A stretch of 13,763 nucleotides of DNA from a virus (IMGVR_UViG_2537562217_000016); one strand, 5' to 3'. Counted from the stretch's first letter, positions 1,965 to 13,763 are shown. Notes: generated by a model from the letters alone, not told the origin. Translations and numbers: made by a program.

Positions 1965-2068
1965 ATCGCCCCACAGGAATGCGCTGTGAGCCGACCAAGG
2001 TTCAGTCAGTCTCGCGAGACCTGACCAGACTGCCATATTTTTTAATAATTGTAAAAGGCTTACAGATT

Positions 2069-2833
2069 ATGAAAATGCAGACATTACCCATCGTGCCGTG
2101 GATTGGTGGCAAACGCCGCCTTGCAAAACACATTCTGCCGCTGTTTCCGGCGCATGAATGTTATGTGGAGCCGTTTTGTGGGGCAGCAGCGCTCTATTTT
2201 CTTAAGACACCCGGCAAGATCGAAGTCATCAATGATATCAACGGTGAACTGGTGAATCTGTACCGGGTGGTAAAGCATCACCTGGAAGAATTTGTCCGCC
2301 AGTTCAAATGGGCGCTGGTCAGCCGTCAGATCTACAAATGGCTGCAGATCACCCCGGAAGAAACACTGACGGATATCCAGCGTGCGGCACGGTTCTACTA
2401 CCTTCAGAAGCAGGCGTTTGGCGGCAAGGTGGCAGAGCACAGCTTCGGTACCTCCACCACATCCCCGCCACGCTTCAACCTGCTACGTATTGAAGAAGAA
2501 CTGTCAGCGGCACACCTGCGGCTTTCCAGAACAGTCATAGAACACATGGACTGGCAACAGTGCATTGAGCGTTATGATCGTCCGCACACGCTGTTCTACT
2601 GCGACCCACCGTACCTGGGTACGGAAGGCTATGGTGTGGATTTTCCTGAAGGGAACTACTCGCGGCTGGCAGAGCTGGCCCGGTGCATCAGAGGAAAAAT
2701 GATAATTTCGGTGAACGACATCCCGCAGATGCGCGAGGTGTTCACTGGACTGAACATACAGACAGTGAATATCAACTACAGTCTGGCGGGTAAACCCACG
2801 CCGCGCCGTGAACTGCTAATCTGCAACTTCTGA
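2069..2833 (+). CDS. Dam-family (D12 class) N6-adenine DNA methyltransferase, orphan
   Basis: N-terminal AdoMet-binding region PWIGGKRRL...EPFCGAAALYF and catalytic DPPY motif (LFYCDPPYLGTEGY); overall resemblance to Dam. Start chosen at ATG 2069 (RBS AAAAGG 2053..2058) rather than the longer track ORF from 1979. No adjacent restriction endonuclease candidate. Confidence 0.85.
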   Translation: MKMQTLPIVPWIGGKRRLAKHILPLFPAHECYVEPFCGAAALYFLKTPGKIEVINDINGELVNLYRVVKHHLEEFVRQFKWALVSRQIYKWLQITPEETLTDIQRAARFYYLQKQAFGGKVAEHSFGTSTTSPPRFNLLRIEEELSAAHLRLSRTVIEHMDWQQCIERYDRPHTLFYCDPPYLGTEGYGVDFPEGNYSRLAELARCIRGKMIISVNDIPQMREVFTGLNIQTVNINYSLAGKPTPRRELLICNF

Positions 2834-2949: not shown

Positions 2950-3306
2950 TCAGCCTGCGATTTTTCCTGGTTTTGGCTGAGTATAGAATCGCCCAATCTC
3001 AAGAAATGAGCGTTGTTGGTCTGGTGTCATGTCGTCAAAAGTATCTATTAGTTTTTGTTTTTCTGGGGAAATTTGATTCTGGTTTCTAGTCATACCATCT
3101 GTGCTCATTCCAGTGAGCAACCAATTTACATCAACATTAAACTCTTGATGCATCTTTAACAGAAACTCCCCTCCAGGCATCGCCTTTCCATTTTCAATCT
3201 GACTGATACCACCATTAGAAATACCTAAACGAGCTGCAAATTCTCTCTGGTTCAACCCTGCTTTCTTCCTCACAGAAATAACGCGCTCTCCTATATCTTT
3301 GCTCAT
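2950..3306 (-). CDS. Phage repressor, XRE/Cro-CI family HTH
   Basis: HTH_3 signature LNQREFAARLGISNGGISQIENGKAMP near the N-terminus; divergent from the early operon; operator half-site overlaps its start codon. Confidence 0.8.
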   Translation of the reverse strand: MSKDIGERVISVRKKAGLNQREFAARLGISNGGISQIENGKAMPGGEFLLKMHQEFNVDVNWLLTGMSTDGMTRNQNQISPEKQKLIDTFDDMTPDQQRSFLEIGRFYTQPKPGKIAG

Positions 3307-3399: not shown

Positions 3400-3588
3400 A
3401 TGACTGCAGAACAAGTCAAAGCTCTCTTCCGCCAGCGCGGGATCACTTTCACCCGCTGGGCAGAAGAAAACGGCTACAACCGCAATGAGGTATACCGCGT
3501 TCTCAACGGGCAGACCAAAGCCCGTTACGGTAAATCCCATGAAATCGCCGTGAAGTTGGGACTGAAATCAACAGCTCAGGCGGCCTAA
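3400..3588 (+). CDS. ner: Ner-like small DNA-binding protein (winged HTH, Ner/Nlp-type), first gene of early operon
   Basis: RBS AGGAG 3389..3393, ATG 3400. 62 aa with HTH and a C-terminal GKSHEIAVKLGL resembling the Ner/Nlp GE.IIAKALG motif; position equivalent to Mu ner. Confidence 0.6.
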   Translation: MTAEQVKALFRQRGITFTRWAEENGYNRNEVYRVLNGQTKARYGKSHEIAVKLGLKSTAQAA

Positions 3589-5212: not shown

Positions 5213-6982
5213 ATGACCCCGGCACTGACTGAAAAACTGGTTGAAACAGCCCGCGCGGCACGTGACGCGGGGCATGGTAAACGCGGTGCAATATACGACG
5301 CTGCCTGTGCTGAACTTGGCATGTCCCGCGCCACTCTGCTGCGCAGGCTGAAGGAGGTATCTGTGACTGATAAACGCAAAAAACGCGCCGATGCCGGGCG
5401 CAGCGCCCTGACCCGCGACGAAGCCGCGCTGATATCTGCCACACTGCGTGAGGCCACCCGCAAGAACGGTAAGCGTCTCTATTCCATCGCAGATGCAGTG
5501 GAAACCCTGCGGGCTAACGGCTTTATCACCGCAGGCAGAACAGATGAAACCACCGGTGAGTTTTTCCCGTTGTCTGAAGATGCCATCAGCCGTGCTCTGC
5601 GTAACTATGGCCTGCACCCGGAACAACTGGATGCCCCTGCACCACATACCGAAGTGGCCAGTCTGCATCCCAATCATGTCTGGCAGATTGACGCCTCACT
5701 CTGCACGCTTTACTACCTGAGCAATGGACATAAAGGGCTGCAGGTGATGGACAGCGCGAAGTTCTACAAGAACAAGCCCGCTAACCTTGCCCGTATCGCC
5801 AGTGACCGCGTGTGGAGTTACGAGATTACCGACCATGCCAGCGGCTGGATTTACGTTGAGTATGTGACGGGCGCGGAATCAGGTGAGAACCTGTGTTCTG
5901 TGCTTATCAACGCCATGCAGGAGCGTGGCGGCGCAGACGTGCTGCACGGCGTGCCGAAAATACTCTATCTCGACCCCGGCTCGGCAAACACCGCGGGTAT
6001 GACGAAAAACATGTGCCGCTCACTGGGCATCGACCTGATAGCGCACAAGCCGCATAACGCCCGCGCCACCGGACAGGTGGAAAAGGCGCGTGACATTATC
6101 GAACGCAAGCTGGAGCCGGGTCTGAAGTTCCGGCCGGTTCACAGTCTGGAAGAACTCAACGCGCTGGCCGCGAAATGGCGCAGCCACTTTAACGCCACGG
6201 CTGTTCACAGCCGCCACGGTAAAACCCGCACGGATATCTGGCTGAAGATTACTGCTGAGCAGCTGAAAAAAGCGCCTTCCGTTGAGGTATGTCGTGAACT
6301 GGCTGTGGCGGCACCAGAACTCCGCAAAGTCACGCCAAAACTTCGTGTCTCGTTCCGGGGCACTGAATTTGACGTATCAACGGTACCGGGCGTACTGGTT
6401 GGTGAAAAACTGATGATTACCCGTAACCCATGGCGCAGCGATGTGGCACAGGTGGTTCTGACCGGTGAGGACGGCCACGAGACGTTCTTCCTGGTCGAAG
6501 AGGTCAGAAAGAACAAGTTTGGCTTTGCTGAAGGCGCGGCGGTATTTGGCGAAAGTTACAAAGCCCTGCCGGAAACCCCGGCACAGATGGCGGCAAAAGA
6601 AACCGAAGCGCTGGTTACCGGTACAGACAACGCCGCAGATGCAGCCGCCGCACGCAAGGCGAAGGCGCTGCCGTTCGGCGGGCGGCTTGACCCGTATAAA
6701 CATATCGACGACACCACACTTCCGGCCTATATGCCGAAGCGTGGTCAGGCCTCTGACGTACGCGGGCCGCGCACTGAACAACGTCCCATGACTCATGTGG
6801 AGGCCGCGAAAGCCCTGCGCGATAAGTTCAGCGCCGACGGCCTTACCTGGACGCCGGAACATTACCGCCAGTTAACGGCACAGTACCCGGACGGCGTACC
6901 GGAAGCCGCACTGGATGAAGTCATGGCCACGCTGACCACACCGGCCCGCAGCAGTGTTATCAGCATTGTTAACGGCAACTGA
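5213..6982 (+). CDS. DDE transposase of transposable phage (TnsB/Tn552/TniA-type DD(35)E core; MuA analogue)
   Basis: Catalytic triad read from the translation: D160 (HVWQIDAS, codon 5690..5692), D254 (ILYLDPGS, 5972..5974), E290 (ATGQVEKAR, 6080..6082), i.e. D-93-D-35-E. Basic N-terminal DNA-binding region. Position between ner and the ATPase. Confidence 0.85.
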   Translation: MTPALTEKLVETARAARDAGHGKRGAIYDAACAELGMSRATLLRRLKEVSVTDKRKKRADAGRSALTRDEAALISATLREATRKNGKRLYSIADAVETLRANGFITAGRTDETTGEFFPLSEDAISRALRNYGLHPEQLDAPAPHTEVASLHPNHVWQIDASLCTLYYLSNGHKGLQVMDSAKFYKNKPANLARIASDRVWSYEITDHASGWIYVEYVTGAESGENLCSVLINAMQERGGADVLHGVPKILYLDPGSANTAGMTKNMCRSLGIDLIAHKPHNARATGQVEKARDIIERKLEPGLKFRPVHSLEELNALAAKWRSHFNATAVHSRHGKTRTDIWLKITAEQLKKAPSVEVCRELAVAAPELRKVTPKLRVSFRGTEFDVSTVPGVLVGEKLMITRNPWRSDVAQVVLTGEDGHETFFLVEEVRKNKFGFAEGAAVFGESYKALPETPAQMAAKETEALVTGTDNAADAAAARKAKALPFGGRLDPYKHIDDTTLPAYMPKRGQASDVRGPRTEQRPMTHVEAAKALRDKFSADGLTWTPEHYRQLTAQYPDGVPEAALDEVMATLTTPARSSVISIVNGN

Positions 6983-6992
6983 GGAGGGAAAC

Positions 6993-8159
6993 ATGCTGGT
7001 ACTGAAGCAGCAACTGAAAGAGGCCCGTATTCCACAGGCGGTGGTGGCGAGAGCTGTCGATGTTTCTGAGGCCACGCTGGCCCAGATTGTGAATCATAAC
7101 GCGTGGCCCCGCACCAGCCCCGGAGAAGTGCGCCGGCGTCTTGCGTCCTGGCTGGAAAGTCAGGGGATTGATACAACGAAGAGTTTTGATGCTGTACAGG
7201 GCGCGGCCACGCCCCGTACAGCGGGTACCACAGATAAAACGAGCCTCAGTGAGGAAGAGAATATGTTACTCAAAAAACAGGTGTTATTTCCAGCAACCAA
7301 AAAAGCGTTTGGTCTTTTCCGTGACCCGTTCGCCGACGAAGCCATGCAGGGTTCTGATGATGTGTTCACCACCCCGGATATTCGCTACGTGCGTGAGGCG
7401 TTGTACCAGACAGCCCGTCATGGTGGGTTTATGGCCGTCATCGGTGAGTCCGGTGCGGGTAAATCCACGCTGCGCCGCGACCTGACTGAACGTATCAACC
7501 GCGAGAATGCGCCGGTAATTGTTATCGAGCCATACATCATCGCTATGGAAGACAACGATGTGAAAGGGAAAACCCTGAAGGCAGCAGCGATTGCCGAAGC
7601 CATTATCAGTACCATCGCACCACTGGAAAGCATCAGACGCAGTCAGGACGCCCGCTTTCGCCAGTTGCATCGCGTCCTGAAAGACAGCAGCCAGGCGGGG
7701 TTCAGCCACGTTCTGGTGATTGAGGAGGCCCACAGTCTGCCCATTCCGACACTGAAACACCTCAAACGCTTTTTTGAGCTGGAGTCCGGTTTCAAAAAAC
7801 TGCTGTCCATCGTGCTGATTGGCCAGCCGGAACTGGCGACAAAACTGTCTGAACGCAATATGGAAGTCCGTGAAGTCGTTCAGCGCTGTGAGGTGGTCGA
7901 ACTTCTGCCTCTGGACAATAACCTTGAAGAGTTTCTGACGTTCAAACTGCAACGGGCCGGTAAACAACTGACGGACATTATGGACGCCAGCGCAGTGGAT
8001 GCCATACGTGCCCGCCTGAGCAATCCGGGAAGTCATCGTAAAAATATGGTCAGCCTGCTGTATCCGCTGGCCGTCAGTAACCTGGTAATAGCCGCCATGA
8101 ATCTGGCCGCTGAAATCGGGGTTCCACAGGTCAACGCTGACGTTGTCAAAGGGGTTTAA
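6993..8159 (+). CDS. Transposition-associated AAA+ ATPase (MuB/TniB/TnsC analogue) with N-terminal HTH extension
   Basis: RBS GAGGAGGG 6981..6988, ATG 6993, 10 nt after the transposase stop. Walker A GESGAGKST (~7441..7470), Walker B HVLVIEEAH; N-terminal HTH-like ARAVDVSEATLAQIVNHN. Confidence 0.8.
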   Translation: MLVLKQQLKEARIPQAVVARAVDVSEATLAQIVNHNAWPRTSPGEVRRRLASWLESQGIDTTKSFDAVQGAATPRTAGTTDKTSLSEEENMLLKKQVLFPATKKAFGLFRDPFADEAMQGSDDVFTTPDIRYVREALYQTARHGGFMAVIGESGAGKSTLRRDLTERINRENAPVIVIEPYIIAMEDNDVKGKTLKAAAIAEAIISTIAPLESIRRSQDARFRQLHRVLKDSSQAGFSHVLVIEEAHSLPIPTLKHLKRFFELESGFKKLLSIVLIGQPELATKLSERNMEVREVVQRCEVVELLPLDNNLEEFLTFKLQRAGKQLTDIMDASAVDAIRARLSNPGSHRKNMVSLLYPLAVSNLVIAAMNLAAEIGVPQVNADVVKGV

Positions 8160-8161
8160 TA

Positions 8162-8431
8162 ATGAAATCCACCACAGGTATCAACCAGCAAATCAGCAAA
8201 GTGCAGTCAGCCATTATGGCGCTTAAGGCGACGAACACGGATGTACAAAGCATCACCATCAGGGGTAACAAACCTGTCATCCGCGTTTCCCGGAGTGCGC
8301 ATTGCATGCGCATGCTTGAGCAGGGAAAGGCCTGTTATCTGTATACCGGTCATGACCACAGGGGACATTTCCGTCAGGGCGTTTTCGAACTGCACGGCTG
8401 TCGCGTCGTGTGGCCGGAATCTTTGTGGTAA
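8162..8431 (+). CDS. Hypothetical protein (89 aa) in the position of Mu kil
   Basis: ATG 2 nt after the ATPase stop; Cys/His-rich C-terminal half (HCMRM...CYLYTGHDHRGH...HGC). Function unknown. Confidence 0.5.
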   Translation: MKSTTGINQQISKVQSAIMALKATNTDVQSITIRGNKPVIRVSRSAHCMRMLEQGKACYLYTGHDHRGHFRQGVFELHGCRVVWPESLW

Positions 8432-8458
8432 TCAGCACAACAGGAGGAGTCATAAAAT

Positions 8459-8989
8459 ATGGCAAAAAGTACAAAAGGGGCAAAACGTATCAAAGCCGCA
8501 GCAGCACTCTGGGTGCCGGGGACACGCGAAGAGGTCATTGAGGGAATCAGACTGCTTGGTGACGCGCAACGTGAACTGGTCAGGGCTGAAACAGAAATGA
8601 ATGACACCATTGGCGACATCACTGCACGTTATGCCCCGCTCACCGAGAGCCTGAAAAAACGCATGGCCGAACTGCAGTCCGGTATCCAGACATGGTGTGA
8701 GGCGCACCGTGATGAACTGACCGGCAACGGGAAGGTGAAGTTCGCTAACCTCACCACCGGCGAGGTGCAGTGGCGAAACCGTCCGCCGTCAGTCAGCATT
8801 CGCGGGGCGGATAATGTCATTGAACTGCTGAGACGTCTGGGGCTTGAGCGCTTTATTCGTGTAAAGGAGGAAATAAATAAAGATGCCATTCTGAATGAAA
8901 AAGAGGCTGTGAAAAATATTCCCGGTATTACCATAAAAAGTGATATTGAGGATTTTTCAATAATTCCTTTTGAGCAGGATGTGCAGTAA
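8459..8989 (+). CDS. gam: Host-nuclease inhibitor protein Gam (Mu Gam family)
   Basis: RBS AGGAGG 8442..8447. Extended colinear similarity to phage Mu Gam as recalled: RIKAAAA, ETEMND, WCEAHRDELTGNGKVKFANLTTGEVQWRNRPPSVSIRG, LGLERFIRVKEEINKDAIL, GITIKSDIEDFSIIPFEQ. Confidence 0.9.
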   Translation: MAKSTKGAKRIKAAAALWVPGTREEVIEGIRLLGDAQRELVRAETEMNDTIGDITARYAPLTESLKKRMAELQSGIQTWCEAHRDELTGNGKVKFANLTTGEVQWRNRPPSVSIRGADNVIELLRRLGLERFIRVKEEINKDAILNEKEAVKNIPGITIKSDIEDFSIIPFEQDVQ

Positions 8990-9086
8990 ACACACCACGT
9001 TAATTATTTAATAAAAACATTTTCTTTTTTATTCCGGCGTCAGCGCCGCGGGCTTCTGCACGCCGGAAACAGAGGAGAATTAAATT

Positions 9087-9281
9087 ATGATATTTAAATG
9101 TATTCAGTGCGAGAGGGATATAACAGCCCTGCGTTTTCACAGCGCCATCGCCGTGATGTCCGGTAAGTATCACATACCTGCAGTACGTGTCACCCTGGTC
9201 TGCCCGTACTGCAGCCAGCATTTTTCGGCGGACGTGCCCGTCATGGAATTCTCCCGCCCTGACAGGGAGGACGCGCAATGA
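9087..9281 (+). CDS. Small zinc-ribbon protein (64 aa; CxxC ... CxxC)
   Basis: RBS GAGGAG 9073..9078, ATG 9087. Cys pairs KCIQCE and VCPYCS. Confidence 0.5.
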   Translation: MIFKCIQCERDITALRFHSAIAVMSGKYHIPAVRVTLVCPYCSQHFSADVPVMEFSRPDREDAQ

Positions 9282-9550
9282 TTACCCCACAGGAAGCACG
9301 ACAGCGCACCCGAACTCTTGTTGAACACTATGTCAACGAGTGTGAATGCCGCGACCTCACCGATGTGAAGCACGTCCTGACGGCGCTAATCAGCATGGCC
9401 ACACAGGCCATTGTGGCGACCAACGGAAAGGAGGCTGCCCTGCAGGTACTGATGAACACACTCACCCACACGGCAGAGCATGAGGTGCCGTACCGGATGG
9501 AAACCACTGCAGAAGGCGGCCTGCACATCACCGTCAGCCGGAAGCACTGA
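9278..9550 (+). CDS. Hypothetical protein (90 aa)
   Basis: ATGA start/stop overlap with the upstream ORF (translational coupling); no recognisable motif. Confidence 0.45.
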   Translation: MITPQEARQRTRTLVEHYVNECECRDLTDVKHVLTALISMATQAIVATNGKEAALQVLMNTLTHTAEHEVPYRMETTAEGGLHITVSRKH

Positions 9551-9559
9551 GGGCGCGGC

Positions 9560-9856
9560 ATGACACGAAACACCGAACTCACCCGCACCGCCCTCTACCG
9601 TCTGGCCCTGCAGCGTTTCGGGCCGGACGCACAGGCCCTGAAACTGGCAGAAGAGGCCGCTGAACTGGCGGCCAGTGCCGCCCGCAACCTGAACGGACAG
9701 GGCAGCGAAAGTGACCTCGCGGCAGAGCTGGCAGACGTGGAAATCATGACAGAGCAACTGCGCCTTCAGGGGATGGACCGGCTGATTGACTTCCACAAAC
9801 AGAAAAAACTGGAACGTCTGGCTGCACGACTGGGCGTGATTTACACGAACGAGTAA
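9560..9856 (+). CDS. Putative MazG-like all-alpha NTP pyrophosphohydrolase-domain protein (98 aa)
   Basis: Acidic helix motifs LAEEAAELAASAA and AAELADVEIMTEQL plus C-terminal KQKKLERL resemble the EExxE/ExxD metal-binding helices of small phage MazG-like proteins. Assignment is from motifs only. Confidence 0.45.
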   Translation: MTRNTELTRTALYRLALQRFGPDAQALKLAEEAAELAASAARNLNGQGSESDLAAELADVEIMTEQLRLQGMDRLIDFHKQKKLERLAARLGVIYTNE

Positions 9857-9870
9857 CCGGGAGGCATTCA

Positions 9871-10086
9871 ATGGCTGACATACTCAGGGAAATCACCGCA
9901 TGGACACTGATTCTTACTGGCCTGGCGACATGCCTCAGTGCGGGGGCAGCCCTGGCTGCCCTGCTGATGCACATAACAACACAGTGGTTATGGGAAAAGC
10001 TTAAAGCAGCATACAGCCTGAAAGAGCTGTCCGACGCTGTCCGGGCATGGAAACGGCAGAAAAATACCGGAGATACAGAACAATGA
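9871..10086 (+). CDS. Small membrane protein (71 aa; one predicted TM helix)
   Basis: RBS GGGAGG 9857..9862, ATG 9871. Hydrophobic stretch WTLILTGLATCLSAGAALAALLM. Confidence 0.45.
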   Translation: MADILREITAWTLILTGLATCLSAGAALAALLMHITTQWLWEKLKAAYSLKELSDAVRAWKRQKNTGDTEQ

Positions 10087-10766
10087 CAGACCAGAATAAA
10101 CACATTGAGAAACTGAAAAAGTTGCTGGCGCTGGCCGCATCCGGCAACCCGCACGAGGCCGCTCTGGCACTGCGCCGAGCCCGTAAACTGATGGATGTTC
10201 ACGGCATCACACATTCCGACATTGCTATGAGTGATATTGATGAAACCATCAGTCACTACTGGCCGACAGGCAGTCTCCGTCCACCGCGCTACATGCTGGG
10301 CCTGATGAACATCATCCGCGAGGTATTTGGTGTTAACTCCATCATTCACCCCGGCACGCATCCGTCTGTGGGGTTCTACGGCAACCGGGAACGTGCGGCA
10401 CTGGCTGCATACACCTGGGAAGTGCTGGCCCGTCAGCTGAAAAAGGCGCGTCAGCAGTATATCAGTGCACAGAACAAAAGAATAAAAACCGCCACCCGCA
10501 CCAGCCGTGGAGACCAGTTTGCCGAAGGCTGGGTGCTGGCCGTTATCAGTGAAATACAGTCCTTTGCCCTGACCGATGATGAGCGTGAATTGATGCAGCA
10601 GTGGCTGGAACATAAATACCCGCAGACGCAAACCACCAGGGCGCGTAAACCGGGAAGAAGCCGCAATGGCGACGCCTCGCGCTATGCGGGGTTTCGTGAA
10701 GGGCAGAACGTCAGACTGCACCGCCCGGTCAGTGGGCAGGAACAACAGAAACTGGAGGCCAGATGA
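10083..10766 (+). CDS. DUF2786-like protein (227 aa)
   Basis: ATG 10083 overlaps the upstream stop (ATGA) and is preferred over the track start at 10047. N-terminal motif IEKLKKLLALAASGNPHEAALALRRARKLM resembles the DUF2786 signature as I recall it. Confidence 0.6.
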   Translation: MTDQNKHIEKLKKLLALAASGNPHEAALALRRARKLMDVHGITHSDIAMSDIDETISHYWPTGSLRPPRYMLGLMNIIREVFGVNSIIHPGTHPSVGFYGNRERAALAAYTWEVLARQLKKARQQYISAQNKRIKTATRTSRGDQFAEGWVLAVISEIQSFALTDDERELMQQWLEHKYPQTQTTRARKPGRSRNGDASRYAGFREGQNVRLHRPVSGQEQQKLEAR

Positions 10767-10993
10767 TTACGCTATCAGGTAAAAGCCGGAAATTAAAAGC
10801 CTGCCGAATATCTGCCAGATACCTTTTTGCCCGCGCCTTTTTTAAGAACGTCAGGCCGGGGATCACAATTGGTGTTATTGCCGGACGCGAACAGGTTGAA
10901 AAATACATGTCAGGTGCATGGTGGAATAACGACCCTGTCATTGCTGCCCGTAATATTCATATCGAATGGGGAGGTATTCAGAATGACTACTGA
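10763..10993 (+). CDS. Hypothetical protein (76 aa)
   Basis: ATGA overlap with the upstream ORF stop; no motif recognised. Confidence 0.4.
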   Translation: MITLSGKSRKLKACRISARYLFARAFFKNVRPGITIGVIAGREQVEKYMSGAWWNNDPVIAARNIHIEWGGIQNDY

Positions 10994-11189
10994 AACCATT
11001 GTCTGTTTTCTTTTCTGGTATATGTACGCAGGATCATGCAGCGCAAGACTTCATCGTTCCCTGGGCTATGGCAGGCACTACGACACCGCGCATTACATCC
11101 TGTACATGACCGCCGTCATGTTGTTCTGGCCAGTCACCCTGCCAGCTGCAACCGACATTGTTGCCGACAGACTGAAAAAAAGGAGATGA
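10983..11189 (+). CDS. Small membrane protein (68 aa; two hydrophobic segments)
   Basis: ATG 10983 overlaps the upstream ORF end. Hydrophobic segments IVCFLFWYMYAG and ILYMTAVMLFWPV. The track's longer ORF from 10827 is rejected as an upstream extension. Confidence 0.4.
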   Translation: MTTETIVCFLFWYMYAGSCSARLHRSLGYGRHYDTAHYILYMTAVMLFWPVTLPAATDIVADRLKKRR

Positions 11190-11190
11190 T

Positions 11191-11388
11191 ATGCAGAAAA
11201 AACGCCTGATACAGCTTATCCATATTGCCCGTAATGAACTGGGTATGGATGAAGACACCTACCGCCAGATGTTACAGGGGCTGACCGGTAAAGCCTCAAC
11301 CAAAGGAATGGATACCACACAACTAAACTGCGTGCGTAAGCGTCGTCTCAGCACCGTCTGGCAGATCCTGAAATTCCTGAGAGAATAG
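11191..11388 (+). pseudogene. GemA/gp16-like (DUF1018) gene truncated by IS66-family insertion; only ~48 native codons (11191..~11335) remain
   Basis: RBS AGGAG 11181..11185, ATG 11191. N-terminal LIQLIHIARNELGMDEDTYRQMLQGLTGKASTKGM matches the conserved start of Mu gp16/GemA-like proteins as I recall it. The reading frame runs into the IS end at ~11336 and stops at 11386..11388. Confidence 0.55.
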
Positions 11389-11416
11389 TGGACACCAAAT
11401 ATGGTGGACGCTATTC

Positions 11417-11821
11417 ATGAAATCATTAACCGCAGTGCGTAAAAAAAGCCCTAATTATCCCGTTGAGTTCAAAATCAAAATGGTGGAACTCTCGCATCGA
11501 CCAGAGATCTCCGTAGCGCAACTCGCTCGTGAGCATGGGATCAACGATAATTTGCTGTTCAAGTGGCGCCAGTACTGGCGCGAAGGAAAACTACGTCCTC
11601 CTTCAACAACAGAAAACAACGTGCCTGAGCTGCTCCCGATAACACTTGATGCCGAAGATGTTGTCCCTACAACCTCCCCCCGGTCACAACCTGTAGCTGC
11701 TGCGACACCTGAATCACTCAATATCAGCTGTGAAGTGACGTTCCGGCACGGATCACTCCGTCTGAATGGTGCCATCAGCGAAAATATCCTGAACCTGCTG
11801 ATACGGGAGCTCAAACGTTGA
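11417..11821 (+). CDS. tnpA: IS66-family accessory protein TnpA (orfA)
   Basis: 134 aa with HTH region ISVAQLAREHGINDNLLFKWRQYW; first ORF of the IS66 module. Confidence 0.85.
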   Translation: MKSLTAVRKKSPNYPVEFKIKMVELSHRPEISVAQLAREHGINDNLLFKWRQYWREGKLRPPSTTENNVPELLPITLDAEDVVPTTSPRSQPVAAATPESLNISCEVTFRHGSLRLNGAISENILNLLIRELKR

Positions 11822-12165
11822 TCCCATTACCATCAGGGACAAAGATCTGGCTGGTCGCTGGCATCACCGATATGAGAAACGGCTTCAACGGCCTGGCGGC
11901 AAAGGTGCAGACGACGCTGAAAGACGATCCGATGTCAGGTCACGTTTTTATCTTCCGTGGGCGTAATGGCAGTCAGGTAAAGCTCCTCTGGTCTACCGGC
12001 GATGGACTGTGTCTGCTGACCAAACGGCTGGAGCGCGGCCGCTTCGCCTGGCCGTCAGCCCGGGATGGCAAAGTGTTCCTCACACCGGCACAGCTGGCGA
12101 TGCTGCTGGAAGGTATCGACTGGCGGCAGCCTAAAAGACTACTTACGTCCCTGACTATGTTGTAA
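11818..12165 (+). CDS. tnpB: IS66-family TnpB (orfB)
   Basis: Highly characteristic IPLPSGTKIWLVAGITDMRNGFNGLAAKVQ... N-terminus; TTG start at 11818 overlaps the tnpA stop (11819..11821). Confidence 0.9.
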   Translation: MIPLPSGTKIWLVAGITDMRNGFNGLAAKVQTTLKDDPMSGHVFIFRGRNGSQVKLLWSTGDGLCLLTKRLERGRFAWPSARDGKVFLTPAQLAMLLEGIDWRQPKRLLTSLTML

Positions 12166-12213
12166 GCCTCTTTATCCTGGTCGACGCTGAATGAGCCTGG
12201 TAATATACCCGGT

Positions 12214-13751
12214 ATGAGCAGCTCACTTCCTGACGATATCAATGCACTGAAACGTCTCCTTGCCGAACAGGAGGCGCTGAACCGTGCCCTGCTGGAAAAG
12301 CTGAACGAGCGTGAACGCGAAATAGACCATCTGCAGGCACAGCTGGATAAGCTGCGCCGGATGAACTTCGGCAGCCGCTCGGAAAAAGTCTCCCGTCGTA
12401 TCGCACAGATGGAAGCTGACCTGAAGGCACTTCAGAAAGAAAGTGATACCCTTACCGGTCGGGTTGACGACCCGGCCGTGCAGCGCCCGCTGCGTCAAAC
12501 CCGCACCCGCAAACCGTTCCCCGAATCACTCCCCCGCGATGAAAAACGGCTGCTGCCGGCAGCGTCATGCTGCCCGGAATGTGGAGGCTCGCTGAGCTAT
12601 CTGGGTGAGGATGCCGCCGAACAGCTGGAGTTGATGCGCAGCGCCTTCCGGGTTATCCGGACTGTACGTGAAAAGCATGCCTGTACTCAGTGCGATGCCA
12701 TCGTGCAGGCCCCCGCGCCTTCACGGCCCATCGAGCGGGGTATCGCAGGACCGGGGCTGCTGGCCCGCGTGCTGATCTCAAAGTATGCAGAGCACACCCC
12801 GCTGTACCGCCAGTCTGAAATGTACGGCCGCCAGGGCGTGGAGCTGAGTCGTTCACTGCTGTCGGGCTGGGTGGATGCATGCTGCCGGCTACTGTCACCG
12901 CTGGAAGAAGCGCTTCAGGACTATGTGCTGACTGACGGTAAGCTCCATGCTGATGACACGCCTGTCCCGGTGCTGTTGCCAGGCAATAAGAAAACGAAGA
13001 CCGGGCGGTTATGGACCTACGTTCGTGACGACCGTAACGCCGGGTCAACGCTGGCGCCGGCGGTGTGGTTCGCTTACAGCCCGGACAGAAAAGGCATCCA
13101 TCCGCAGACCCATCTTGCGGGGTTCAGTGGTGTACTGCAGGCGGATGCATACGCCGGGTTCAACGAGCTGTACCGGGATGGCCGGATAACGGAAGCCGCC
13201 TGTTGGGCTCACGCCCGCCGTAAAATCCACGATGTGCACGTTCGCACCCCGTCAGCCCTGACGGAGGAAGCGCTGAACGGATCGGCGAACTGTACGCCAT
13301 CGAGGCAGAGATAAGGGGAATGACGGCGGAGCAGCGCCTTGCCGAACGTCAGTTGAAAACGAAACCGCTGCTGAAATCCCTGGAAAGCTGGCTGCGTGAA
13401 AAGATGAAAACCCTGTCGCGACACTCAGAACTGGCGAAAGCGTTCGCATACGCCCTGAACCAGTGGCTGGCGCTGACGTACTATGCAGATGATGGCTGGG
13501 CTGAGGCGGACAATAACATCGCTGAAAATGCGTTGCGGATGGTCAGTCTGGGCCGCAAAAACTACCTGTTCTTCGGTTCGGATCATGGAGGAGAGCGGGG
13601 AGCGCTGCTGTACAGCCTGATCGGGACGTGCAAACTGAACGGAGTGGAGCCAGAAAGCTACCTCCGCTATGTCCTTGACGTCATAGCCGACTGGCCGATA
13701 AACCGGGTCGGCGAACTGCTCCCCTGGCGCGTAGCACTGCCGACTGAATAA
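12214..13751 (+). pseudogene. tnpC: IS66-family transposase TnpC (orfC), interrupted by an apparent 1-nt frameshift near 13276..13278
   Basis: ORF 12214..13314 (366 aa; leucine-zipper-like N-terminus, CPECGG zinc-finger-like motif, DDE region) and ORF 13320..13751 (143 aa) are colinear in different frames. The downstream frame is already open from ~13260 (…[20 protein letters not shown]…), and the combined ~510 aa matches full-length TnpC. Confidence 0.8.
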
Positions 13752-13763
13752 CACATCCCCGTC

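What the first reader, a model, noticed from the sequence alone, without database searches (positions are those of the whole stretch)
9087..11189. Array of seven translationally coupled small ORFs after gam
After gam, seven ORFs follow on one strand with ATGA-type start/stop overlaps or short gaps bearing strong RBSs: a zinc-ribbon protein, a 90-aa ORF, a MazG-like protein, a membrane protein, a DUF2786-like protein, a 76-aa ORF and a second membrane protein. This corresponds to the Mu semi-essential region, where accessory host-interaction genes accumulate; most of these have no known function.
Basis: partly seen in the sequence, partly recalled or inferred. Interest (0 to 1): 0.5.

Follow-up and report, generated by a model that had tools for sequence, protein, structure and literature searches.

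The report
Accessory early-gene block of Mu-like prophage
The seven tightly packed small genes after gam are real and form the variable "semi-essential" early block of a Mu-like prophage found in about one in nine complete E. coli genomes; this is an ordinary, already recognised kind of region whose genes mostly have no known function.

Summary
Observation confirmed. Seven same-strand ORFs lie at 9087-11189, between gam (8459-8989) and a gemA gene that an IS66-family element cuts at 11336. Junctions are -4, +9, +14, -4, -4, -11 and +1 nt, and every start has a Shine-Dalgarno match. NCBI's PGAP annotation of an identical E. coli copy uses the same boundaries.

Identities:
- O1: four-Cys zinc ribbon.
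- O2: unknown function.
- O3: small MazG-like NTP pyrophosphohydrolase (motif and PHROG match; fold evidence weak).
- O4: one-TM protein.
- O5: DUF2786+DUF7168.
- O6: conserved Trp-rich 76-aa protein.
- O7: small membrane protein.

Interpretation supported, with nuance. The region occurs in 629 of 5426 complete E. coli genomes. In 35 related viral contigs the block has eight arrangements (O1 35, O5 33, O7 33, O3 28, O6 21, O2 20, O4 12). O4 is lost by a natural in-frame deletion, and O7 has two alleles about 40% identical. Mu itself has no homologue of any of the seven. O5 recurs in distant Mu-like phages and on conjugative plasmids.

Extra: a conserved hairpin in the gam-O1 spacer, also present in Mu with compensatory changes.

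Low interest: an uncharacterised member of a known kind.

The parts
8459..8989 (+). gam (host-nuclease inhibitor). This is the conserved upstream anchor of the block.
   Evidence: Pfam Phage_Mu_Gam E 1.1e-40. phmmer against Mu gp10 gives 3.4e-66.
9019..9080 (+). Conserved hairpin in the 97-nt gam-O1 spacer. The core stem-loop is 9032-9068. An outer stem (9019-9028 with 9071-9080) pairs a U-run with the O1 Shine-Dalgarno sequence.
   Evidence: - Fold: -29.5 kcal/mol, z -3.9, 0 of 200 shuffles as stable.
- Nine variants including Mu: 90% of cells paired against 32-52% when slid, and 4 pairs changed on both sides.
- The exact core occurs once per contig in 45 viral contigs, always after gam or DUF3164.
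- It is in 620 E. coli genomes (678 places), close to the 629 genomes (696 places) that hold the region.
- No Rfam match and not terminator-like.
9087..9281 (+). O1: 64-aa zinc-ribbon protein (CxxC ... CPxC).
   Evidence: - phrog_3401, E 1.2e-40.
- C5, C8, C39 and C42 are kept in intact homologues down to 26% identity.
- dN/dS 0.04-0.27.
- Present in 35 of 35 related contigs.
- Only 10 clusters at E<=1e-3 among 1.84 billion representatives.
9278..9550 (+). O2: 90-aa protein of unknown function. Its start overlaps the O1 stop (ATGA).
   Evidence: - phrog_3691, E 4.2e-56.
- 40% identical homologue in a Salmonella Newport prophage.
- dN/dS 0.40-0.48.
- Present in 20 of 35 contigs.
9560..9856 (+). 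O3: 98-aa MazG-like all-alpha NTP pyrophosphohydrolase.
   Evidence: - phrog_2245 (NTP pyrophosphohydrolase), E 5.5e-34.
- E31, E32, E56 and D59 are invariant and E35 nearly so across 22 homologues, giving EExxE(20)ExxD.
- A profile search aligns these motifs with MazG 5ie9, at E 0.58 only.
- AlphaFold2 model pLDDT 80. Top Foldseek hits are DCTPP1, MazG 1vmg and 5ie9, HisE, AF1178, YpjD and E. coli MazG, all with E>0.1.
- PGAP names it an NTP pyrophosphohydrolase family protein.
- Present in 28 of 35 contigs.
9871..10086 (+). O4: 71-aa single-pass membrane protein. It is the most sporadic cassette.
   Evidence: - Kyte-Doolittle 19-residue peak of 1.98 at residues 14-32.
- phrog_3958.
- Removed by a 221-nt deletion (9845-10065) in L003 and L004. 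The deletion fuses O3 in frame to the last six O4 codons and keeps the ATGA with O5.
- Present in 533 of 629 E. coli genomes and 12 of 35 contigs.
10083..10766 (+). O5: 227-aa basic protein with DUF2786 and DUF7168 domains. It is the widely conserved anchor gene of the block.
   Evidence: - Pfam DUF7168 1e-25 and DUF2786 4.4e-11, both above the curated cut-off.
- Net charge +12.
- Fold relatives in many unrelated phages.
- Found upstream of gemA, after gam or DUF3164, in Salmonella, Proteus, Aeromonas, Pasteurella and Pseudomonas Mu-like phages.
- Found on 283 plasmids, 227 of them conjugative.
10763..10993 (+). O6: 76-aa basic, Trp-rich protein of unknown function.
   Evidence: - phrog_3681.
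- Homologues in Salmonella, Proteus, Citrobacter and Serratia with invariant F22, F27, K28, P32, G33, W53, W54, H66, W69 and G70.
- Also present in a Serratia contig (L014), about 1.3 kb upstream of terminase genes and with no Mu-type early genes among those called.
- Present in 21 of 35 contigs.
10983..11189 (+). O7: 68-aa small membrane protein with two hydrophobic segments. It has strongly divergent alleles.
   Evidence: - Kyte-Doolittle peak of 1.52 at residues 39-57, plus a shorter hydrophobic segment at residues 5-21 that I read from the sequence.
- phrog_6436.
- A 71-aa allele only about 40% identical sits between near-identical flanks.
- The window allele is in 464 of 629 E. coli genomes.
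- Present in 33 of 35 contigs.
11191..11335 (+). gemA (gp16) N-terminal 48 codons. This is the downstream anchor, truncated here.
   Evidence: Pfam GemA 3.4e-07. Intact copies continue ...AACTGCGTGC|TGGAATCC, whereas the window continues with GTAAGCG. In intact prophages gemA and mor follow.
11336..13763 (+). IS66-family insertion sequence that interrupts gemA and runs to the window end.
   Evidence: Pfam HTH_Tnp_1, TnpB_IS66, and DDE_Tnp_IS66 split over two ORFs (12214-13314 and 13320-13751). This junction is found in 0 of 5426 complete E. coli genomes.

Best explanation
The seven ORFs are the distal, variable part of the early operon of a Mu-like transposable prophage. They correspond to the semi-essential early (SEE) region between gam and gemA/mor.

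Inferred steps:
- They are transcribed with the transposition genes as one rightward early mRNA. This starts at the early promoter, between the divergent repressor gene (2950-3306, minus strand) and the ner-like gene (3400-3588).
- Overlapping or nearly abutting stop and start codons, each with its own Shine-Dalgarno site, let ribosomes pass from one cistron to the next, so the genes are expressed together.
- The GC-rich hairpin in the 97-nt spacer after gam has no U-tail. It probably acts on the mRNA, either by stabilising the upstream transposition/gam segment or by limiting ribosome entry to O1, whose SD it can pair with.

Shown:
- The block is a set of independently exchangeable gene cassettes. 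O1 (zinc ribbon), O5 (DUF2786+DUF7168) and O7 (small membrane protein) form a near-constant backbone in this clade. O2, O3, O4 and O6 come and go.

Likely roles (inferred):
- O3 hydrolyses nucleoside triphosphates or alarmones, as other single-domain phage MazG-like enzymes do.
- O5 is a basic, possibly nucleic-acid-binding early protein shared by phages and conjugative plasmids.
- O4 and O7 act at the inner membrane.
- None is needed for the core transposition machinery.
For: Position and strand: transposase, MuB-like (ExeA-family) ATPase, HI_1482-family protein, gam, seven ORFs, gemA, mor.

No terminator-like site lies inside 9000-11400. Only one lies in 8000-11500, fewer than shuffles give.

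Junction geometry and SD enrichment.

Coupled junctions persist when neighbours change:
- The O3 to O5 fusion junction keeps ATGA.
- Salmonella O1/O3, O3/O5, O5/O7 and O7/gemA all overlap.

Cassette behaviour:
- Eight arrangements in 35 contigs.
- The O4 deletion.
- O7 alleles about 40% identical between near-identical flanks.
- O6 also occurs in a Serratia contig next to terminase genes, with no Mu-type early genes called.
- Mu has no homologue of O1-O7, although its gam and gemA are homologous.

Purifying selection on O1, O3 and O5.

O3: catalytic motif, PHROG match and MazG-type fold neighbours. There is a precedent in Atd1, a phage MazG-like enzyme that depletes (p)ppGpp (bioRxiv 10.1101/2022.06.09.495361).

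Hairpin: stability, conservation, compensatory changes and fixed position.

The SEE concept is in the literature (PMC8705779).
Against: There are no expression data. A single early transcript and real ribosome hand-over are inferred from sequence only.

The O3 assignment is not statistically firm outside PHROGs:
- Pfam PRA-PH scores 15.5 bits, below the 21.3 cut-off.
- The PDB profile hit has E 0.58.
- Foldseek E-values are above 0.1, and the model shows three helices rather than a clear four-helix bundle.

O1, O5 and O7 are nearly universal in the clade. They could therefore be functionally required there rather than accessory.

The 35 contigs were selected for carrying the exact hairpin core, so the frequencies are biased.

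In this copy the IS66-family insertion in gemA separates the block from mor, so the prophage may be defective.
Confidence: 0.85

Rival explanations
1. The seven genes form one co-functional multi-protein system, for example a single anti-defence or host-takeover machine, rather than independent cassettes. Tight coupling would then exist to fix subunit stoichiometry.
For: The junctions are overlapping or very short. O1, O5 and O7 co-occur in 31 of the 35 related contigs. The full seven-gene order is the commonest single arrangement, at 12 of 35.
Against: - O2, O3, O4 and O6 are present in only 20, 28, 12 and 21 of 35 contigs, in eight combinations.
- Two contigs lack O5 and two lack O7.
- O4 is cleanly deleted in natural E. 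coli prophages.
- O6 occurs alone next to terminase genes in a Serratia contig.
- O5 occurs alone in many phages and plasmids.
- Equally tight junctions are found throughout the Mu early region.
Confidence: 0.08
2. Some of the small ORFs, chiefly O4, O6 or O1, are not genes. They would be chance open frames or mis-stranded calls in a non-coding or regulatory spacer.
For: - O4 and O6 show almost no informative variation within E. coli.
- O6 dN/dS is about 1 on very few differences.
- GenBank PhiKM annotates a minus-strand ORF instead of O1.
- O4 has no homologue outside the E. coli lineage in the loci examined.
Against: - O6 has homologues at 62-83% identity in five genera, with ten invariant residues and conserved length.
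- O1 has dN/dS 0.04-0.27 and four conserved Cys at 26-48% identity.
- By my reading of the alignment, seven of ten substitutions in O1 fall on + frame third positions.
- Every ORF has an SD site and fills its interval exactly.
- O4 has a clear TM segment, and a roughly 70% identical variant is kept as an ORF-length match in L032 and L062.
Confidence: 0.05
3. The block is essentially core for this phage clade. O1, O5 and O7, and perhaps O3, would have required replication or regulatory roles, so 'accessory' is the wrong label.
For: - O1 is in 35 of 35, O5 in 33 of 35 and O7 in 33 of 35 related contigs.
- O5 holds the same position in Salmonella, Proteus, Aeromonas, Pasteurella and Pseudomonas Mu-like phages.
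- O1, O3 and O5 are under strong purifying selection.
Against: - Two contigs lack O5 (L034, L035) and two lack O7 (L026, L037).
- Mu, a fully functional transposable phage, has no detectable homologue of any of them.
- O7 tolerates about 60% amino-acid divergence between alleles.
- The frequencies come from contigs chosen for sharing the hairpin, so they describe a narrow clade.
Confidence: 0.15

Closest known systems
Semi-essential early (SEE) region of phage Mu, gam to gemA (gp11-gp15)
   Same: - Same place in the same operon: downstream of the transposase and ATPase genes, bounded by gam and gemA/mor.
- A run of small, tightly packed genes of unknown function.
- Mu also has a 98-nt spacer after gam, with a hairpin at the aligned position.
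   Different: No sequence homology between any of O1-O7 and Mu gp11-gp15. Mu has five genes there, one of them on the opposite strand. Mu lacks any DUF2786/DUF7168 protein or MazG-like enzyme in this interval.
Escherichia phage PhiKM (PQ738613) and the same Mu-like prophage in 629 complete E. coli genomes
   Same: 99.5-100% nucleotide identity over the whole block, with the same gene order, followed by gemA and mor.
   Different: - The window copy carries an IS66-family insertion in gemA that is found in none of 5426 complete genomes.
- PhiKM annotates a minus-strand ORF instead of O1.
- About 15% of copies lack O4 and about 26% carry another O7 allele.
MazG-like single-domain phage NTP pyrophosphohydrolases, for example Atd1 of Pectobacterium phage PcCB7V
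   Same: O3 is a roughly 100-aa all-alpha protein with the EExxE...ExxD metal-binding motif. MazG, DCTPP1 and HisE entries top the structure search. Atd1 depletes (p)ppGpp and counters TIR-driven abortive infection.
   Different: O3 does not reach any Pfam or NCBIfam threshold. Its substrate is unknown. Its family is confined to Enterobacterales prophages.
DUF2786 / DUF7168 proteins of phages and plasmids (PHROG 421)
   Same: O5 matches both Pfam domains above the curated cut-off, and matches phrog_421 end to end. The predicted fold recurs in many phages and in conjugative plasmids.
   Different: The family has no assigned function. No paper in the library discusses DUF7168, and only four mention DUF2786, each once.
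Intercistronic stabilising hairpins of polycistronic operons (REP-type, as in malE-malF); from my own knowledge
   Same: A GC-rich stem-loop without a U-tail, between cistrons of one operon, at the boundary between a strongly conserved upstream module and downstream genes.
   Different: It is single-copy and prophage-specific, not a dispersed repeat: 620 genomes and 678 places, close to the prophage count. It can also pair with the downstream SD. No experiment links it to mRNA stability.

Membership tests
Semi-essential early (SEE) region of Mu-like transposable phages | Lies in the early operon, on the same strand, downstream of the DDE transposase and the AAA+ target-DNA ATPase | tested here: met
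   Transposase 5213-6982 and ATPase ORF 6954-8159 (listed start GTG 6954; the annotated start in identical copies falls near 6993) lie upstream on the + strand. In identical copies they are annotated as an integrase-catalytic-domain protein and an ExeA-family protein.
Semi-essential early (SEE) region of Mu-like transposable phages | Bounded by gam on one side and gemA/mor on the other | tested here: met
   Gam Pfam E 1.1e-40 and GemA Pfam E 3.4e-07. Intact copies continue with gp16 and Mor.
Semi-essential early (SEE) region of Mu-like transposable phages | Small genes of unknown function that are poorly conserved among transposable phages | tested here: met
   Six of seven PHROGs are 'unknown function'. 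No homologues in Mu. Eight arrangements in 35 contigs. Definition taken from PMC8705779.
Semi-essential early (SEE) region of Mu-like transposable phages | Dispensable for lytic growth and transposition | not testable with these tools
   The only evidence is indirect. Natural prophages lack O4, or lack O2, O3, O5, O6 or O7 in various contigs.
MazG-like all-alpha NTP pyrophosphohydrolase (O3) | EXXE(12-28)EXXD metal-binding motif | tested here: met
   E32-x-x-E35, then 20 residues, then E56-x-x-D59. E31, E32, E56 and D59 are invariant in 22 homologues.
MazG-like all-alpha NTP pyrophosphohydrolase (O3) | Significant match to a curated family model | tested here: not met
   Pfam PRA-PH scores 15.5 bits against a 21.3 cut-off. 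NCBIfam hisI scores 14.6 against 42.7. Only the uncurated phrog_2245 matches strongly, at 5.5e-34.
MazG-like all-alpha NTP pyrophosphohydrolase (O3) | Four-helix-bundle MazG fold | tested here: inconclusive
   The AlphaFold2 model (pLDDT 80) shows three helices. The best Foldseek hits are DCTPP1, MazG, HisE and YpjD, but with E of 0.15 or more and TM about 0.5.
MazG-like all-alpha NTP pyrophosphohydrolase (O3) | Pyrophosphohydrolase activity on (d)NTPs or (p)ppGpp | not testable with these tools
   Needs an enzyme assay.
DUF2786 + DUF7168 family (O5) | Both Pfam domains above the gathering score, in N-to-C order | tested here: met
   DUF2786 at residues 8-44, 43.0 bits against 23.9. DUF7168 at residues 46-189, 90.4 bits against 25.5.
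Zinc-ribbon protein (O1) | Two CxxC knuckles conserved among homologues | tested here: met
   C5-x2-C8 and C39-P-x-C42 are kept in all intact homologues at 26-48% identity.
Zinc-ribbon protein (O1) | Membership of a named zinc-ribbon family | tested here: not met
   Every Pfam and NCBIfam hit is below its cut-off: Sgf11 19.2 against 26.4, YnfU 14 against 27.
Translationally coupled operon | Stop and start codons overlap or lie within a few nucleotides, with an SD inside the upstream cistron | tested here: met
   Gaps of -4, +9, +14, -4, -4, -11 and +1. An SD is present at every start.
Translationally coupled operon | Downstream translation depends on translation of the upstream cistron | not testable with these tools
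   Needs reporter fusions with upstream stop-codon mutants.
Known anti-phage defence systems (PADLOC) | Match to a defence-system protein model | tested here: not met
   There are no hits apart from a chance-level JetC match for O6, E 0.026 and 10 bits.

The most novel reading that the evidence does not exclude
The conserved hairpin after gam would be a dedicated regulatory boundary element of Mu-like early operons. It would set how much transcript or how many ribosomes pass from the transposition module into the variable block. Within that block, O5 (DUF2786+DUF7168) would be a general early 'establishment' factor shared by phages and conjugative plasmids. O3 would be an alarmone- or dNTP-hydrolysing counter-defence enzyme. 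If so, the block would be a compact and experimentally tractable source of new anti-defence or host-takeover functions carried by a prophage found in about one in nine complete E. coli genomes.
Probability: 0.25. Interest if true: 0.5.

Novelty: new member of a known kind. Interest (0 to 1): 0.2.

Why it matters
The region is in about 12% of complete E. coli genomes, and the matching records include ST131 and other human isolates, so its genes are common yet unstudied.

The comparison made here sorts the seven into three groups:
- a near-constant backbone (O1, O5, O7);
- frequent cassettes (O3, O6, O2);
- a sporadic one (O4).

That sorting tells an experimenter which genes to delete first. It also picks out O5, a protein family shared by many phages and conjugative plasmids, as the most general unknown.

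The block is otherwise an ordinary example of a phage accessory early region and does not change current understanding.

Tried and rejected
- **Defence-system membership:** a PADLOC scan found nothing meaningful.
- **Solved-structure relatives by sequence:** none for O5. O3 gave only chance-level hits as a single sequence. The O3 profile aligned the MazG motifs of 5ie9, but at E 0.58.
- **Known RNA families in 8000-11600:** none at E<=1.
- **Hairpin as an intrinsic terminator:** rejected. It has no U-tail on either strand and the scan does not call it.
- **Hairpin as a dispersed REP-like repeat:** rejected. It is single-copy and prophage-specific.
- **Internal repeats in the block:** only short two-copy chance matches.
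- **Minus-strand ORF at 9000-9278** (annotated in PhiKM): rejected on substitution phase and dN/dS.
- **Longest-ORF starts** for O5 (10047) and O7 (TTG 10827): rejected. They have no SD, and the homologue alignment and PGAP both support 10083 and 10983.
- **Homology of O1-O7 to Mu gp5-gp17:** none.
- **Literature:** no paper on DUF7168, only incidental mentions of DUF2786, and nothing found on the Mu gam-gp11 spacer.
Full report
**What is in the window**

The window is the early region of a Mu-like transposable prophage. On the + strand it reads, from 3400 onward:
- a ner-like gene (3400-3588);
- an IclR-type HTH gene;
- a DUF3102 gene;
- a 589-aa DDE transposase (5213-6982);
- a MuB-like ATPase, ExeA family (6954-8159 as listed; annotated start near 6993);
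- an HI_1482-family gene (8162-8431);
- gam (8459-8989; Pfam Phage_Mu_Gam 1.1e-40).

An HTH repressor gene lies divergently at 2950-3306. After gam come the seven ORFs of the finding, then the first 48 codons of gemA (Pfam GemA 3.4e-07). At 11336 an IS66-family element begins (TnpB_IS66 and DDE_Tnp_IS66) and runs to the window end. In intact copies gemA and mor follow the seven ORFs directly.

**Checking the observation**

The coordinates and the geometry are right. The ORFs are O1 9087-9281, O2 9278-9550, O3 9560-9856, O4 9871-10086, O5 10083-10766, O6 10763-10993 and O7 10983-11189.

The gaps are -4 (ATGA), +9, +14, -4 (ATGA), -4 (ATGA) and -11, then +1 to gemA. A 97-nt spacer precedes O1.

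Every one of the eight starts has a Shine-Dalgarno match of at least 4 nt, and six have at least 5 nt. Only 27% and 9% of all 255 + strand ATGs in the window do.

PGAP annotation of a 100% identical E. coli copy uses exactly these seven boundaries. Each ORF matches a separate PHROG over its full length.

The longer starts that the mechanical ORF list gives for O5 (10047) and O7 (TTG 10827) have no SD. The homologue alignment and PGAP do not support them either.

**Are they genes?**

Against variant prophages, dN/dS is 0.04-0.27 for O1, 0.14-0.21 for O3, 0.02-0.15 for O5 and 0.40-0.48 for O2.

O6 is almost invariant within E. coli. It has homologues at 62-83% identity in Salmonella, Proteus, Citrobacter and Serratia. 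These keep its length and ten invariant residues (F22, F27, K28, P32, G33, W53, W54, H66, W69, G70).

O4 has a clear transmembrane segment, with a Kyte-Doolittle peak of 1.98. A diverged variant of about 70% identity exists in two viral contigs.

GenBank phage PhiKM annotates a minus-strand ORF where O1 lies. By my reading of the alignment, seven of the ten substitutions there fall on third positions of the + frame. O1's four cysteines are kept in homologues down to 26% identity. So the + strand gene is the real one.

**What the proteins are**

- **O1** is a CxxC...CPxC zinc ribbon. It belongs to no named family, since all Pfam and NCBIfam hits fall below their cut-offs. Its family is very small: 10 clusters at E<=1e-3 among 1.84 billion representatives.
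- **O2** has no recognisable domain.
- **O3** is probably a minimal MazG-like all-alpha NTP pyrophosphohydrolase.
  - It matches phrog_2245 (NTP pyrophosphohydrolase) at 5.5e-34.
  - It carries EExxE, 20 residues, then ExxD. E31, E32, E56 and D59 are invariant in 22 homologues.
  - A family profile aligns these motifs with the Bacillus MazG structure 5ie9, though only at E 0.58.
  - Its AlphaFold2 model (pLDDT 80) finds DCTPP1, MazG, HisE, AF1178, YpjD and E. coli MazG as top neighbours, all with weak E-values.
  - It fails every curated family threshold, so 'MazG-like' is moderately supported, not proven.
- **O4** is a single-pass membrane protein.
- **O5** carries DUF2786 and DUF7168 above Pfam cut-offs and has a net charge of +12.
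  - It folds confidently (pLDDT 86.8).
- **O6** is a basic, Trp-rich 76-aa protein.
- **O7** has one strong hydrophobic segment and a shorter one.
- Nothing matches a known defence system.

**Comparison with related prophages**

The region is in 629 of 5426 complete E. coli genomes, nearly always once, and in phage PhiKM at 99.5% identity.

Variation within E. coli:
- Some prophages carry a 221-nt deletion (9845-10065). It removes O4, fuses O3 in frame to O4's last six codons, and keeps the ATGA overlap with O5. O4 is present in 533 of the 629 genomes.
- O7 has a second, 71-aa allele only about 40% identical, sitting between almost identical flanks. The window allele is in 464 genomes.

Arrangements between the gam-position gene and gemA in other hosts:

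| Host or lineage | Arrangement |
|---|---|
| Salmonella | DUF3164 (in place of gam), O1, O3, O5, O7 |
| Proteus | gam, O1, O2, a 53-aa ORF, a longer O3, O5, O6 |
| Salmonella Newport | distant O1 and O2, O5, and in one copy a different NTP pyrophosphohydrolase (PF04447) |
| Aeromonas, Pasteurella, Pseudomonas (Mu-like phages) | share only O5 |

I then took 45 viral contigs that carry the spacer hairpin (see below). The interval up to gemA is complete in 35 of them. The counts there are O1 35, O5 33, O7 33, O3 28, O6 21, O2 20 and O4 12, in eight different arrangements. These contigs were selected through the hairpin, so the frequencies describe one clade only.

Mu itself has clear gam and gemA homologues (3.4e-66 and 1.9e-12). 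No homologue of any of O1-O7 is found among its gp5-gp17.

O6 also occurs in a Serratia contig about 1.3 kb upstream of terminase genes, with no Mu-type early genes called.

O5-like folds occur in many unrelated phages. O5 homologues are on 283 plasmids, 227 of them conjugative. In one Acinetobacter plasmid the gene sits in a mostly one-strand array of small ORFs that also includes an H-NS-like gene, a thermonuclease and ParAB.

**Interpretation**

The block occupies the position of the semi-essential early region of transposable phages. The literature describes that region as long, poorly conserved and made of small genes of unknown function (PMC8705779).

One refinement applies. The block is a mixture. 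O1, O5 and O7 are a near-constant backbone in this clade. O3, O6 and O2 are frequent cassettes. O4 is sporadic.

Cassettes are exchanged at gene boundaries, and overlapping or abutting stop/start junctions are kept whichever genes end up adjacent. This fits one polycistronic early mRNA with ribosome hand-over. Transcription and coupling themselves are inferred from sequence, not shown.

Only one terminator-like site is found in 8000-11500, and none inside the block.

**A feature just outside the finding**

The 97-nt gam-O1 spacer holds a GC-rich hairpin. Its core is 9032-9068. An outer stem pairs a U-run (9019-9028) with the O1 SD region (9071-9080).

- It folds at -29.5 kcal/mol, z -3.9.
- It is more conserved than the flanking coding DNA. 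The only distant matches of the spacer in the phage collection are about 50-nt stretches covering the hairpin, in Klebsiella and Escherichia Mu-like phages.
- Its exact core occurs once each in 45 viral contigs, always right after gam or DUF3164.
- It occurs in 620 E. coli genomes (678 places), close to the 629 genomes (696 places) that hold the region. It is therefore not a dispersed repeat.
- Mu has a 98-nt spacer with a hairpin at the aligned position and a different stem sequence.
- Over nine variants, 90% of cells pair, against 32-52% when partners are slid, and four pairs change on both sides.
- It has no U-tail, is not called as a terminator, and matches no Rfam family.

My best guess is an mRNA-level element that stabilises the upstream segment or gates translation of O1. 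This is inference.

**Likely functions**

O3 most plausibly hydrolyses nucleoside triphosphates or alarmones. A single-domain phage MazG-like enzyme, Atd1, depletes (p)ppGpp and protects against TIR-driven abortive infection (bioRxiv 10.1101/2022.06.09.495361). O3 was not compared with Atd1 directly.

O5 is a basic early protein shared by phages and conjugative plasmids, and its role is unknown.

O4 and O7 probably act at the inner membrane.

None of this is demonstrated.

**Verdict**

This is an uncharacterised but ordinary member of a known kind of region, already present and auto-annotated in hundreds of genomes. Interest is low.

The most useful outputs are the backbone-versus-cassette sorting of the seven genes, the natural O4 deletion, and the conserved post-gam hairpin.

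Noticed in passing
window 9019-9080 (core 9032-9068): A conserved GC-rich hairpin without a U-tail lies in the gam-O1 spacer, and its outer stem can pair with the O1 Shine-Dalgarno site. It is kept at the same position after gam or DUF3164 in related phages, and in Mu with compensatory stem changes. It is single-copy per prophage and matches no Rfam family.
   Followed up: partly
window 11336-13763: An IS66-family element is inserted after codon 48 of gemA and runs to the window end. It has an HTH ORF, TnpB_IS66, and a DDE transposase split into two ORFs at 13314/13320. This junction is in none of 5426 complete E. coli genomes. The insertion separates the early genes from mor, so this prophage copy may be defective.
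   Followed up: partly
window 9845-10065; L003 and L004 2071-2376: A natural 221-nt deletion in some E. coli prophages removes O4. It fuses O3 in frame to the last six O4 codons (...GVMYTGDTEQ*) and keeps the ATGA overlap with O5.
   Followed up: yes
window 10983-11189; L003 3273-3488; L008 5687-5902: O7 exists as two alleles (68 and 71 aa) only about 40% identical, flanked by near-identical DNA. The 71-aa allele closely resembles the O7 gene of the Salmonella relative L008. This suggests cassette replacement or fast divergence.
   Followed up: partly
L011 3357-4361 (Salmonella Newport-type prophage); L015 2822-3331 (Proteus): Other prophages of this group carry different nucleotide pyrophosphohydrolases in the same interval. 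One is a 334-aa PF04447 dATP/dGTP pyrophosphohydrolase, not called in the sister copy L010. Another is a 169-aa O3 variant with a C-terminal extension of about 70 aa. An NTP pyrophosphohydrolase therefore recurs in this region.
   Followed up: no
L008 3843-4454; L012 3567-4187; L017 1881-2492: In Salmonella, Klebsiella and Aeromonas relatives a DUF3164 protein occupies the position of Gam. In the Salmonella and Klebsiella relatives the same hairpin and an O1-type gene follow it. DUF3164 and Gam look positionally interchangeable.
   Followed up: no
window 8162-8431: The HI_1482-family gene lies directly after the ATPase gene, in the position of Mu kil. It shares a C-terminal 'L.GC.vvW' motif with Mu Kil, but only at phmmer E 0.035, and it has no Pfam hit.
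   Followed up: no
window 1979-2833 and 544-1664: A D12-class N6-adenine DNA methyltransferase (Pfam 8.7e-29) and two ORFs with no family lie to the left of the repressor gene. The otherwise identical prophage in NZ_CM181230 has a different repressor and a nucleoid-associated protein there, so the immunity end is mosaic too.
   Followed up: no
L145 (A. baumannii plasmid p2KSK6) 5001-5690: A DUF2786 homologue of O5 sits in a long, mostly one-strand array of small hypothetical genes on a conjugative MOBF plasmid. The array also holds an H-NS-like gene, a thermonuclease, a short HsdM-like fragment and ParAB. The layout resembles a plasmid leading region.
   Followed up: no
L003, L004, L005, L008, L009 (about 130-650 nt past mor): In these five copies, host genes follow shortly after mor, and in three E. 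coli copies the adjacent host gene is disrupted (hycH fragment next to hyfR, a SWIM-domain gene next to yehP, gspL). The flanking host genes differ between genomes. This shows random transpositional insertion and a prophage end close to mor, so the late genes must lie on the other side of the repressor.
   Followed up: no
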